NCBI RefSeq assembly: GCF_003991155.1
Contig: NZ_CP031293.1
Direction: 5' to 3' (one strand)
Length of the DNA stretch: 64,000 nucleotides
DNA from: Escherichia coli
Lineage (GTDB): Bacteria > Pseudomonadota > Gammaproteobacteria > Enterobacterales > Enterobacteriaceae
Below are positions 33,001 to 36,000 of this stretch, in pieces. Position numbers: made by a program. Position 1 is the stretch's first letter; every line of letters starts with the position of its first letter.

Positions 33001-36000
33001 TGGCCAAAAATTGAGGCATTTATTACTTGGTTAAGAGAACAGGTAAGTCAATATGAATGTTATACCTTATAATACATTAAATCATCTGGTTCCTAAATAA
33101 CCTTATTATGCACTGTAAGTGTATGTTGGCTTTATAAATTGCAATTTTTATATGGGAATTGTTTTGTCAATAGTTACGAAAAGGATAAATAAAATAACCA
33201 CATCTTCTTGGCGTCGAATATTGGAGAGCGATAATTTATAGTAAACTAGATTACCAGAGAAAAGATAAGTGGCAATATATTTGCTGGTGGCATTTTTATT
33301 AAATATTATATGTGTTGGTTTGTGACTTTAAAAAAATTAATTTTTAATAAAAAGGTGATTTATTTCTCATTTTGATTAATATTGAGGATCCATTATGATT
33401 ATCAGTTGTATGTCATAAAAATGAGGGGCTAAAAGCCTCAATGAATTGAGGCCTTTAGAACAGGGGTTATATCTTCTTTATATCTAACACATCACTCTCC
33501 CATACTCGTTTAAATCTTGCTGCATTACTGGCTGTATATAATACCGTATGATGTATATTTCTGTGCCCTAAATAATCTTGTATTAGTCTGGTGTCTAACC
33601 CTTGATTAGCTAAAGCATACCCACAACCATGCCTAAGCATGTGAGGATGAATATTAATATTCATATTGTGACTATATTTCTTACACATCTTATACACATA
33701 TTGTCTCGAGATTTTATTTCCTTGACAAGAAAGAAATAAAGAGTCTTCAAAAGGTTTTTTTACTATGTTATCACGTAGTGCTAGCCATTTTTTTAATAAC
33801 AGAACAGTTTCTTTTTGCAGGGGATGTACTGTGGATAATCCATTTTTTAAACGCTTGATATATATTGCTGACTCTGAAAAGTCAATGTCGCTAATCTTTA
33901 GTGCAATAAGCTCGCTTACCCTAAGACCATGTACATATGCCATTTGTAACATGGCTTTATCTCTAATTTCATTTTTTGAACCGTTGATGGCTTCAAAAAA
34001 TAACAACCATTCACTATGAGTAATAAATTTGCGCATAATATTATCGGTTATACTAATTAAGTTAAAAAATAAACTATAAATACCAGAGCCTGGTATTATT
34101 GCTTGTTTTTTATAAGCAAATAATGAGCTGGGGTTTAAATTATGCCACTAAATGGATATTCATCAATACCCCGCCAGAGAGATAGTTGCCCAGCGGGCAT
34201 AGATCATTGTTAGTCAACCAATGAGCATAAATAAGCACAAGGAGGTGTGTATTGCGAATAGTAATTCAATGACATGCTGGTGGTTTTTTTGTGGTGAAAA
34301 TATTTGTACCTTTTTGTTTACGGATGAAAAATAAACAGTCATATTATTTTGGTCAATTGTTGTGTTAGTTTTAACACTCGGTGATGTTTTTTGTTATAGT
34401 GCATTAAATTTTAAATAAAAAAATTCATACATTCATGGATGTAATATATACAAGATACAATGTTAATTTTAGATAAAATATTAATTGCATTGGATACTTT
34501 TTAAATATGCCGATGTTGAGCTTAATTTTATGAGGGAATGCTATTTCGGGTTGTAGGACTTTTTTATAATCATCTTATAGGGCTCTTTATATTTACAGGA
34601 GGGTTTTGAACGATAGTTACATAACGAAGGTTGTTTATATGCGTTTACAAGCGATTAATTAGATTAGGTGAATTTTAATAAATTAATCTATAATCATACA
34701 GCAACTATATGAATTATATTATTGACTAAATGTAATTCTTTCATCATAGTTGACATGGTTATTTTATATAAATAGAGGTGATTTATGCAAAACAGAAAAT
34801 TTTTAACGCATCATGAAATTAATTTACTACTTCAATCTGTAAGACAAAAGAGTTGCTCTTCACGCGATGTTTGCATGATTTTATTGGCTTATTTTCATGG
34901 TCTGCGTGTTAGTGAGCTCTTATCTCTGCAGTTGTCAGATTTAGAACTAACTACAGAAAAAATATATATTCAACGGATAAAAAATGGATTCAGTACAGTC
35001 CATCCACTTCAAAAGGAAGAGGTGATTGCAATAACAAACTGGCTGAATGAAAGGAATTCATTAAATGTTAAACATTTCAATGATAACCCGTGGTTATTTG
35101 TTTCCCGAACAGGAAAACCATTATCGAGACAACGATTTTATAACATAGTTTCTGCTGCGGGTAAAAATGCAGGTTTAAATATTAAAGTTCATCCACATAT
35201 GTTACGCCATGCATGTGGTTATTCACTAGCAGATAATGGTGTGGATACCCGTCTTATTCAGGACTATCTCGGGCATCGTAATATCAGGCATACGGTAATT
35301 TATACTGCTTCTAATTCAATGAGATTTGAAAAAATGTGGGGGAGAGGTGACGCAAAAAAGCAACATTTTGACCCAAAATGTAAACCCAATCTTTGTTTAG
35401 AAATTCTCGTATAGAAAAACATTTTTTTCTATAAAAAACATTAAATTTACTGATTTAGATCAATGTGTGACGTCAATCTACACATAAAGAGGTAGGTTTG
35501 TCTTCTTTTTAATCTTTGGCGTATAAAGCCAAAATGTAAATAATAATCAAAATTATATTCTGAATTAAAATAAATACGCAGGTTTTTTACCTGCGTTTTG
35601 TGCTATTTATAGTTAATTAAATTGATGTTGTCAAAATGGGTCATTTTGTAAACCTGTGCCTCAAGGTTTGTCTCCCCCCGGTGTGCAAAGCAAAAGGAAA
35701 TTGGGAAAGGGGATAACAGGAAATTGATTGCATGGTTTTGATTACGACGACAAAAAATATTTTTATAATTCAAGCAATTAAGAGTATGCGTTGGCGGGGT
35801 TTTTCGTACGTGAAAGTCATCGCTGTGGACGACTATTCTTCTCTGATTCGTGATTTTGGCACATCTTGCTTTCGGGATGAGCAATCGTTGTTGTTACCTG
35901 TATTCCCTGATAATGATTCTACTACCTGTATACGCTCACTGTATTTCATTCACCAATGGCTAAAAAGCCAGCCTGTCAATATTCCGTGCCTGGCATGGGG

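What the first reader, a model, noticed from the sequence alone, without database searches (positions are those of the whole stretch)
34239..34334. Strong Shine-Dalgarno and a Cys/aromatic-rich 21-codon ORF in the inter-recombinase region
AAGGAGG (34239-34245) is an unusually strong ribosome-binding sequence for intergenic DNA. In frame downstream are GTG 34246 and ATG 34269, opening an ORF ending at TAA 34332-34334 (MTCWWFFCGENICTFLFTDEK). It could be a leader peptide or small regulatory protein for the downstream recombinase, or chance.
Basis: seen in the sequence. Interest (0 to 1): 0.25.

Follow-up and report, generated by a model that had tools for sequence, protein, structure and literature searches.

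The report
Chance ribosome-site look-alike between ipuB and ipuA
The ribosome-binding-like motif and the tiny open reading frame are really in the sequence, but they lie in the fastest-changing stretch of a non-coding spacer between two known E. coli DNA-invertase genes (ipuB and ipuA) and are most likely chance features, not a gene.

Summary
The window carries the known E. coli dsdCXA–ipuB–ipuA–ipuS–ipuR–upaE locus. The finding lies in the 748-bp, 28.6% G+C spacer between the divergent invertase genes ipuB (33467-34036, −) and ipuA (34785-35414, +). It is outside the published ipuS switch.

**What is confirmed**
- AAGGAGG (34239-34245), ATG 34269, TAA 34332-34334 and the 21-residue peptide are all present.
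- The in-frame GTG is at 34245, not 34246, and it overlaps the motif.
- ATG 34269 lies 23 nt after the motif, too far to be served by it.
- The full ORF starts at ATG 34221 (37 codons), so the motif lies inside it.

**Why it is probably chance**
- ORFs of this size arise in 90% of composition-matched simulations.
- Across 35 E. coli alleles the motif is destroyed in 12, and a T7→T6 frameshift occurs in 4.
- Substitutions fall 10/4/5 on codon positions 1/2/3, which is not a coding pattern.
- ipuA's own ribosome-binding site is invariant in the same sequences.
- No gene caller, protein family or RNA family matches the ORF or the region.

**Caveat.** CFT073/Nissle-type alleles have AAGGAGG, 8 nt, then an in-frame GTG (27 codons). 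The window reads GCG at that codon.

**Side observation.** The motif sits at the peak of an 88-bp hypervariable patch that evolves about 10 times faster than its flanks. This is unexplained.

The parts
34239..34245 (+). Shine-Dalgarno-like heptamer AAGGAGG (extends to AAGGAGGTG)
   Evidence: Read directly. One of 2 copies in the window against 5.15 expected. Intact in 23 of 35 alleles and changed to AAGAAGT, AAAAAGT or a 1-nt deletion in 12.
34221..34334 (+).
   Evidence: An ORF of this size appears in 90% of simulations. The exact sequence is absent from a collection of about 15 billion proteins. No Pfam or NCBIfam match.
34254..34256 (+). In-frame codon 8 nt after the motif: GCG in this window, GTG in CFT073-type and most B-type alleles, ATG in the frameshifted alleles
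   Evidence: This is the only position where a canonical start would be correctly spaced, and the window allele lacks it.
34185..34272 (.). Hypervariable patch covering the motif and the first half of the ORF
   Evidence: pi 0.084, against 0.010-0.020 for the rest of the spacer and 0.004-0.005 for the coding regions. It is the peak of the 88-bp sliding windows. It evolves 7-13 times faster than the flanks in every lineage pair checked, r=0.89.
34278..34284 (.). T7 homopolymer inside the ORF. It is T6 in 4 of 35 alleles, which frameshifts the ORF.
34273..34338 (.). Stretch that is invariant apart from the T-tract indel (second half of the ORF plus the stop codon)
   Evidence: Zero substitutions means no contrast between synonymous and non-synonymous change, so it gives no evidence for protein-level constraint.
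34037..34784 (.). ipuB-ipuA divergent intergenic spacer, 748 bp, 28.6% G+C
   Evidence: No feature is annotated here in any of 236 RefSeq complete genomes.
33467..34036 (-). ipuB, tyrosine-type DNA invertase
   Evidence: Pfam Phage_integrase, E=7e-46. RefSeq annotation.
34785..35414 (+). ipuA, tyrosine-type DNA invertase, with its own ribosome-binding site AGAGGTGAT at 34774-34782
   Evidence: Ribosome-binding site and ATG invariant in 27 of 27 alleles.
34139..34166 (-). Promoter-like site TTGATG-16-(TG)CATAAT pointing towards ipuB (candidate only)
   Evidence: Found in three allele classes. Invariant in 28 of 28 sequences. Consensus match only: the number of sites in the region does not exceed shuffles.
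34371..34400 (+). Best promoter-like site, TTAACA-18-(TG)TATAGT, 10 of 12 matches, pointing towards ipuA and lying downstream of the ORF (candidate only)
   Evidence: Hexamers unchanged in all 28 sequences; one low-coverage contig has insertions beside the -35 hexamer and in the spacer.
34722..34750 (+). Proximal promoter-like site TTGACT-17-CATAGT, ending 34 nt before the ipuA start codon (candidate only)

Best explanation
The AAGGAGG heptamer and the 21/37-codon ORF are incidental features of a non-coding, AT-rich spacer. The spacer separates the divergently transcribed invertase genes ipuB and ipuA of the known E. coli ipu/upaE phase-variation locus. The ORF is not a conserved leader peptide or small protein. 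In this window's allele there is no usable start codon at working distance from the motif. The stretch lies between back-to-back candidate promoters, one reading leftwards to ipuB and others reading rightwards to ipuA, so it is probably not part of either mRNA. It is also the fastest-evolving piece of the locus. Shown here: the locus identity, the coordinates, the chance statistics, the allelic decay of motif, start codon and frame, and the lack of homologues. Inferred: the promoter assignment and hence the lack of transcription and translation.
For: Locus identity: 100% match to RefSeq genomes annotated ipuB/ipuA/UpaE. The published ipuS switch lies between ipuA and ipuR (PMC6083910; inverted repeats located at 35369-35375 and 35637-35643), so the finding is outside it. 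Spacing: 23 nt from motif to ATG 34269, and GTG 34245 overlaps the motif. Chance; the window's only other AAGGAGG lies antisense inside a coding region. Alleles (35 sequences): motif destroyed in 12, T7->T6 frameshift in 4, ATG 34269->ATA in 1, and codon 34254 is GCG in the window type. Variable sites in 34221-34272 fall 10/4/5 on codon positions 1/2/3, counted by hand from the alignments. From codon 34254 onwards there are 7 non-synonymous changes against 1 synonymous. Internal controls in the same alignment: the ipuA ribosome-binding site and ATG, the palindrome 34079-34097 and the candidate ipuB promoter are all invariant. Diversity peaks exactly on the motif. No Rfam match. RNA folding is no better than shuffles on either strand, z = 0.44 and 0.15. 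No terminator-like hairpin between the ORF and ipuA. The 37-residue sequence is never called in about 15 billion proteins, and there are no Pfam or NCBIfam hits. The spacer has no similar DNA next to ipuA relatives of other species or on plasmids.
Against: In CFT073/Nissle-type alleles (19 of 35 sequences here; roughly 45% of the 236 locus-carrying complete genomes, estimated) the motif is followed after 8 nt by an in-frame GTG. This opens an intact 27-codon ORF and is a textbook initiation context. The reading frame stays open in 31 of 35 alleles, and its second half is invariant at the DNA level. AAGGAGG is mildly unusual for DNA this AT-rich (8.8% of simulations). Transcription and ribosome occupancy were not measured. 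Promoter calls are consensus matches, no more numerous than in shuffles.
Confidence: 0.8

Rival explanations
1. A lineage-specific, genuinely translated small ORF. In CFT073/Nissle-type alleles AAGGAGGTG, 8 nt after AAGGAGG, then GTG 34254 drives translation of a 27-codon product (fMet-NGNSMPCWWFFCGENICTFLFTDEK). This would act either as a small protein or as an upstream ORF whose translation affects a long ipuA leader. The window's allele (GTG->GCG) and the B-type alleles (motif lost, some frameshifted) would be decayed versions.
For: Ideal motif-to-start spacing in 19 of 35 alleles. The frame is open in 31 of 35. The 3' half of the ORF is invariant.
Against: No allele class other than CFT073-type keeps motif, start and frame together. 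The start is lost in the window type (about 37% of genomes), the motif is lost in the B type, and a B subclade is frameshifted. Substitutions are not coding-like (10/4/5 by codon position; 7 non-synonymous against 1 synonymous). The invariance of the 3' half carries no synonymous signal. The ORF is never called by gene finders. It ends 450 nt from ipuA with no attenuator-like structure. The only plus-strand promoter-like site upstream of the ORF is a 9-of-12 match inside ipuB, and a hairpin at 34079-34097 follows it.
Confidence: 0.12
2. The motif matters on the other strand. Read on the ipuB sense strand it is CACCUCCUU, identical to the 3' end of 16S rRNA. There it could act as an anti-Shine-Dalgarno element in a long ipuB 5' leader and mask a ribosome-binding site.
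For: The sequence reads CACCTCCTT on the minus strand. A promoter-like site on the minus strand at 34356->34328 in the window allele would place it in an ipuB leader.
Against: ipuB has no purine-rich ribosome-binding site to pair with (the upstream sequence is ...TATAACCGATAATATT-ATG). The 34356 promoter-like site is absent from CFT073-type and B-type alleles. The conserved candidate ipuB promoter (34166->34139) lies downstream of the motif on that strand. The minus-strand fold is no better than shuffles. The motif is lost in 12 of 35 alleles.
Confidence: 0.03
3. The stretch is part of a second recombinase target or invertible segment. Imperfect 7-bp inverted repeats, CCGCCAG at 34171-34177 and CTGGTGG at 34274-34280, bracket the hypervariable patch. 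In addition, 34126-34154 is 72% complementary to the ipuA-proximal end of ipuS.
For: The inverted repeats can be seen in the fold and repeat outputs. Tyrosine invertases are encoded on both sides.
Against: All 236 complete genomes and 19 metagenome contigs align collinearly in one piece. Genome-wide inversion mapping in CFT073 with each recombinase over-expressed reported fimS, hyxS and ipuS as the only recombinase-dependent inversions (bioRxiv 10.1101/494401). The repeats do not resemble the ipuS core TGACCCA. 136 inverted-repeat pairs of this quality occur in 2.6 kb.
Confidence: 0.02

Closest known systems
ipuA/ipuB-ipuS-ipuR-upaE phase-variation locus of uropathogenic E. coli (Bryan et al. 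2006; Battaglioli et al. 2018, PMC6083910)
   Same: The window is this locus: 97.3% identity to CFT073 over the 748-bp spacer, with the same gene order, and the ipuS 7-bp inverted repeats were found at 35369-35375 and 35637-35643.
   Different: The finding is not in the characterised ipuS element. It lies in the ipuB-ipuA spacer, about which the two papers read here say nothing beyond using ipuA's 'native promoter' on a plasmid.
Regulatory leader peptides and upstream ORFs (e.g. trpL, pheL, ermCL, tnaC; own knowledge)
   Same: A short ORF upstream of a regulated gene. In some alleles it has a strong ribosome-binding site.
   Different: There is no correctly spaced start in this allele, no attenuator or terminator, and no conservation of motif, start and frame together. 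The ORF lies 450 nt from the gene, and the substitution pattern is non-coding.
Chance Shine-Dalgarno-like sequences in non-coding or antisense DNA
   Same: A perfect heptamer with no conserved start. The window's other AAGGAGG is antisense within a coding region.
   Different: Nothing distinguishes it, except that one allele class happens to have a GTG at the ideal spacing.
Regulatory sequence heterogeneity at the fim switch and fimB region among E. coli isolates (Leathart & Gally 1998, cited in PMC6083910; own knowledge)
   Same: Strain-to-strain sequence variation in non-coding DNA that controls fim-type recombination systems.
   Different: Here the variation is concentrated in one 88-bp patch upstream of both recombinase genes. 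No phenotypic effect is known.

Membership tests
Leader peptide / regulatory upstream ORF | Ribosome-binding site with a canonical start codon 5-10 nt downstream | tested here: not met
   In the window allele ATG 34269 is 23 nt away, GTG 34245 overlaps the motif, and codon 34254 is GCG. The feature is met only in CFT073-type alleles (GTG 34254).
Leader peptide / regulatory upstream ORF | Motif, start codon and reading frame conserved across homologous loci | tested here: not met
   Among 35 alleles the motif is lost in 12, the frame is shifted in 4, and the correctly spaced start is absent in 4. There is no homologous spacer outside E. coli.
Leader peptide / regulatory upstream ORF | Attenuator, terminator or other coupling structure between the ORF and the regulated gene | tested here: not met
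   No terminator-like site on the plus strand between 34335 and 34784. The ORF stop is 450 nt from the ipuA start.
Leader peptide / regulatory upstream ORF | Co-transcription with the downstream gene and ribosome occupancy | not testable with these tools
   No transcriptome or ribosome-profiling data were reachable. The conserved promoter-like sites pointing to ipuA lie downstream of the ORF.
Conserved small protein (sORF-encoded) | Purifying selection at the protein level (excess of synonymous or third-position change) | tested here: not met
   Variable sites fall 10/4/5 on codon positions 1/2/3, and there are 7 non-synonymous changes against 1 synonymous from codon 34254 (hand count). The rest of the ORF has no substitutions at all.
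Conserved small protein (sORF-encoded) | Homologues or family membership elsewhere | tested here: not met
   The exact sequence is absent from about 15 billion proteins. No Pfam or NCBIfam hit at E<=10. tblastn of the plasmid collection finds only the same chromosomal locus, in a record misfiled as a plasmid.
fimS/ipuS-type invertible promoter element | Segment bounded by inverted repeats and found in both orientations | tested here: not met
   There is one orientation in 236 genomes and 19 contigs. The published ipuS lies elsewhere, at 35369-35643. The genome-wide inversion screen in CFT073 reported no other recombinase-dependent inversions.
Structured non-coding RNA | Match to a known family, or a fold better than shuffles | tested here: not met
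   No Rfam match at E<=1. Folding z-scores are +0.44 and +0.15.
Divergent promoter / regulatory spacer of fim-type recombinase genes | Lies between divergently oriented genes and carries conserved promoter-like elements for each | tested here: inconclusive
   The position is met. Promoter-like sites are conserved across alleles, but their number does not exceed shuffles and no transcription start data exist.

The most novel reading that the evidence does not exclude
The 88-bp patch (34185-34272) between the back-to-back ipuB and ipuA promoters could be a true evolutionary hotspot, arising either from locally raised mutation or from recurrent selection. It would re-tune expression of the two phase-variation recombinases, and hence ipuS/fimS switching rates, from lineage to lineage. 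One of its states, the CFT073/Nissle type with AAGGAGG, 8 nt, then GTG, would create a translated 27-codon upstream ORF.
Probability: 0.1. Interest if true: 0.45.

Novelty: not a real feature. Interest (0 to 1): 0.12.

Why it matters
As stated, the finding matters little. It is a chance look-alike in a known locus, and recording it as such avoids a spurious small-gene annotation. The useful by-products are three. First, the finding is placed precisely relative to the published ipuS switch. Second, candidate promoters for ipuA and ipuB, and a conserved palindrome, are mapped for the first time in this analysis. Third, the spacer contains a sharply bounded patch that evolves about ten times faster than its flanks. 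If allele swaps showed that patch alters recombinase expression, it would give a handle on how E. coli lineages set different phase-switching rates for UpaE and type 1 fimbriae.

Tried and rejected
1. **Is the finding inside ipuS?** No. ipuS lies at 35369-35643.
2. **Orthologous spacers in other species.** A genome-contig scan with IpuA returned 80 loci. The closest was E. whittamii at 64% amino-acid identity with a different gene arrangement. blastn found no similarity to the spacer. Conservation could therefore only be tested within E. coli.
3. **Homology search with the peptide.** Exact look-up, family scans and tblastn against plasmids found nothing.
4. **Rfam scan and RNA folding on both strands.** Nothing found.
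5. **Gene-conversion donor for the variable patch.** No paralogous copy in the window, and one copy per genome.
6. **Diversity-generating retroelement.** Rejected because no template repeat exists.
7. **Single imported recombinant segment as the cause of the variability.** Disfavoured because patch divergence tracks flank divergence in all lineage pairs.
8. **Minus-strand 42-codon ORF (34214-34342).** It has no ribosome-binding site and has been called once as hypothetical (ESD06739.1). Treated as chance.
9. **Literature on ribosome profiling or transcription start maps for CFT073 or Nissle covering this spacer.** Nothing usable. Bryan et al. 2006 is not held.

Full report
**Where the finding lies**

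The 2.1 kb around the finding is 100% identical to many RefSeq E. coli chromosomes. In those records the flanking genes are annotated as the tyrosine-type DNA invertases IpuB and IpuA. In window coordinates the locus reads:
- dsdA, dsdX and dsdC upstream
- ipuB, 33467-34036 (−)
- ipuA, 34785-35414 (+)
- a LuxR-type regulator, ipuR, 35732-36352
- the 2639-residue autotransporter gene upaE, 36377-44296

This is the locus in which Battaglioli et al. (PMC6083910) described the 260-bp invertible promoter element ipuS, which lies between ipuA and ipuR. I located its 7-bp inverted repeats, TGACCCA and TGGGTCA, at 35369-35375 and 35637-35643. The finding is not in ipuS. It sits in the 748-bp, 28.6% G+C spacer between the divergent ipuB and ipuA genes (34037-34784). 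None of 236 locus-carrying complete genomes annotates any feature there.

**Checking the observation**

AAGGAGG (34239-34245), ATG 34269, TAA 34332-34334 and the peptide MTCWWFFCGENICTFLFTDEK are all present. Three details change the picture:
- The in-frame GTG is at 34245, not 34246, and overlaps the last G of the motif.
- ATG 34269 starts 23 nt after the motif, too far for it to act as that codon's ribosome-binding site.
- The ORF really opens at ATG 34221 (37 codons), so the motif lies inside it.

In this allele the only start-like codons at working distance are the rare ATT 34251 and an out-of-frame TTG 34252 that opens a 6-codon ORF.

On chance:
- AAGGAGG occurs twice in the window against 5.15 expected. 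The second copy lies antisense within a long coding ORF.
- In a composition-matched Markov model of the spacer, an ORF of at least 37 codons arises in 90% of simulations. At least one AGGAGG arises in 8.8%.
- The unusual amino-acid composition is the translation of T/G-rich tracts.

**Conservation**

No homologous spacer exists outside E. coli. A scan of one genome per species with IpuA gave at best 64% protein identity (E. whittamii), with a different gene arrangement and no nucleotide similarity to the spacer. The plasmid collection holds only a misfiled E. coli chromosome.

Within E. coli I assembled 35 alleles: the window, 15 complete genomes and 19 metagenome contigs. Three allele classes emerge. 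Frequencies among complete genomes are estimated from the identity distribution.

| Class | Sequences (of 35) | Approx. share of 236 genomes | Motif | Codon 34254 | Frame |
|---|---|---|---|---|---|
| Window type | 4 | ~37% | AAGGAGG intact | GCG (no correctly spaced start) | open |
| CFT073/Nissle type | 19 | ~45% | AAGGAGG intact | GTG, 8 nt after the motif (27-codon ORF) | open |
| B type | 12 | ~18% | AAGAAGT, AAAAAGT or a deletion | GTG or ATG | T7→T6 frameshift in 4; ATG 34269→ATA in 1 |

No class other than CFT073-type has motif, start and frame together.

Variable sites between 34221 and 34272 fall 10/4/5 on codon positions 1/2/3. From codon 34254 onwards there are 7 non-synonymous changes against 1 synonymous. 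The remaining 20 codons show no substitutions at all, so they say nothing about protein-level constraint.

In the same alignment several controls are invariant:
- ipuA's true ribosome-binding site (AGAGGTGAT) and ATG
- a palindrome at 34079-34097
- the candidate ipuB promoter

**Other tests**

- No Rfam family matches.
- Neither strand folds better than shuffles.
- No terminator-like hairpin separates the ORF from ipuA.
- The 37-residue product is absent from a collection of about 15 billion predicted proteins.
- It matches no Pfam or NCBIfam model.
- Three promoter-like sites conserved across allele classes point towards ipuB or ipuA: 34166→34139 on the minus strand (towards ipuB), and 34371-34400 and 34722-34750 on the plus strand (towards ipuA).

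The ORF therefore lies in the stretch upstream of both sets of promoter-like sites. These are consensus matches only, and they are no more numerous than in shuffles.

**Most likely explanation**

The motif and ORF are incidental features of a non-coding divergent-promoter spacer (confidence 0.8). The main rival, at 0.12, is that the CFT073-type configuration (motif, 8 nt, GTG) is a lineage-specific translated small ORF and that the window's allele is a decayed copy. The remaining rivals have little support:
- **Anti-Shine-Dalgarno role on the ipuB strand.** ipuB has no purine-rich ribosome-binding site for it to pair with.
- **Hidden inversion site.** There is a single orientation in 255 sequences. 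A published genome-wide inversion screen in CFT073 reported no recombinase-dependent inversions beyond fimS, hyxS and ipuS.

**What was unexpected**

The motif sits at the peak of a sharply bounded hypervariable patch (34185-34272).

| Measure | Patch | Comparison |
|---|---|---|
| Nucleotide diversity, pi | 0.084 | 0.010-0.020 in the rest of the spacer |
| Flanking-gene diversity | – | pi 0.004-0.005; synonymous pi 0.017 (ipuB) and 0.003 (ipuA) |
| Variable sites per 88-bp window | 23 | at most 7 in any other spacer window |

- Patch divergence tracks flank divergence (r = 0.89) at 7-13 times the per-site rate in every lineage pair examined.
- Site 34272 carries all four bases.
- There is no paralogous donor sequence.

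This pattern looks like a locally raised substitution rate or recurrent selection, not a single imported segment. I could not determine the cause.

**Verdict**

It should not be annotated as a leader peptide or small protein. Interest is low. The hypervariable patch is the only element worth a follow-up.

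Noticed in passing
window 34185-34272: An 88-bp hypervariable patch in the ipuB-ipuA spacer. pi is 0.084, against 0.02 or less elsewhere in the spacer. It evolves about 10 times faster than its flanks in every lineage pair. Site 34272 has all four bases, and there are 17 haplotypes of a 101-bp stretch (34180-34280) covering the patch among 35 alleles. The cause is unknown.
   Followed up: partly
window 34254-34256 (and L002 about 1018-1020): In CFT073/Nissle-type alleles this codon is GTG, 8 nt after AAGGAGG, giving a well-formed start for a 27-codon ORF. The window allele has GCG. In the CFT073-type alleles TTG 34252 followed by TGA also forms a minimal start-stop pair 6 nt after the motif.
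   Followed up: partly
window 34278-34284: A T7 homopolymer is T6 in 4 of 35 alleles (L009, L108, L110, L111). This length polymorphism in the promoter spacer could also alter spacing of DNA elements.
   Followed up: partly
window 34079-34097: A perfect 8-bp-arm palindrome, AATACCAGAGCCTGGTATT, lies 43-61 nt upstream of the ipuB start codon. It is invariant in 28 of 28 alleles and was flagged as terminator-like on both strands. It could be an operator or a hairpin in the ipuB leader.
   Followed up: partly
window 34597-34602: A second AGGAGG lies on the plus strand of the same spacer. It is changed at 34598 and/or 34602 in several other alleles (AAGAGA in CFT073), and no start codon lies 4-10 nt downstream.
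   Followed up: partly
window 35369-35643: The published ipuS invertible element is present, with inverted repeats TGACCCA and TGGGTCA. ipuA is full length here (209 aa). By Battaglioli et al.'s definition that corresponds to the OFF orientation for ipuR/upaE.
   Followed up: partly
window 34126-34154 vs 35364-35392: A 29-nt inverted repeat, 72% complementary, links the spacer to the ipuA-proximal end of ipuS and brackets the whole ipuA gene. No assembled genome shows ipuA inverted, so it is probably chance.
   Followed up: partly
window 33467-34036 and 34785-35414: The recombinase proteins are almost invariant. IpuB has one protein accession in the 8 other genomes whose annotation was checked, and non-synonymous pi is 0.0004. 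The spacer between the genes differs by up to 3.6%. ipuA has unusually low synonymous diversity (0.003).
   Followed up: partly
window 34214-34342 (minus strand): A 42-codon ORF lies antisense to the finding. It has been annotated once as a hypothetical protein (ESD06739.1, E. coli 907672). It has no ribosome-binding site and is likely a chance ORF.
   Followed up: partly
NZ_CP134663.1 (hits H121, H122): A 4.9-Mb E. coli chromosome is filed in the plasmid collection (PLSDB) as a non-mobilizable plasmid.
   Followed up: no
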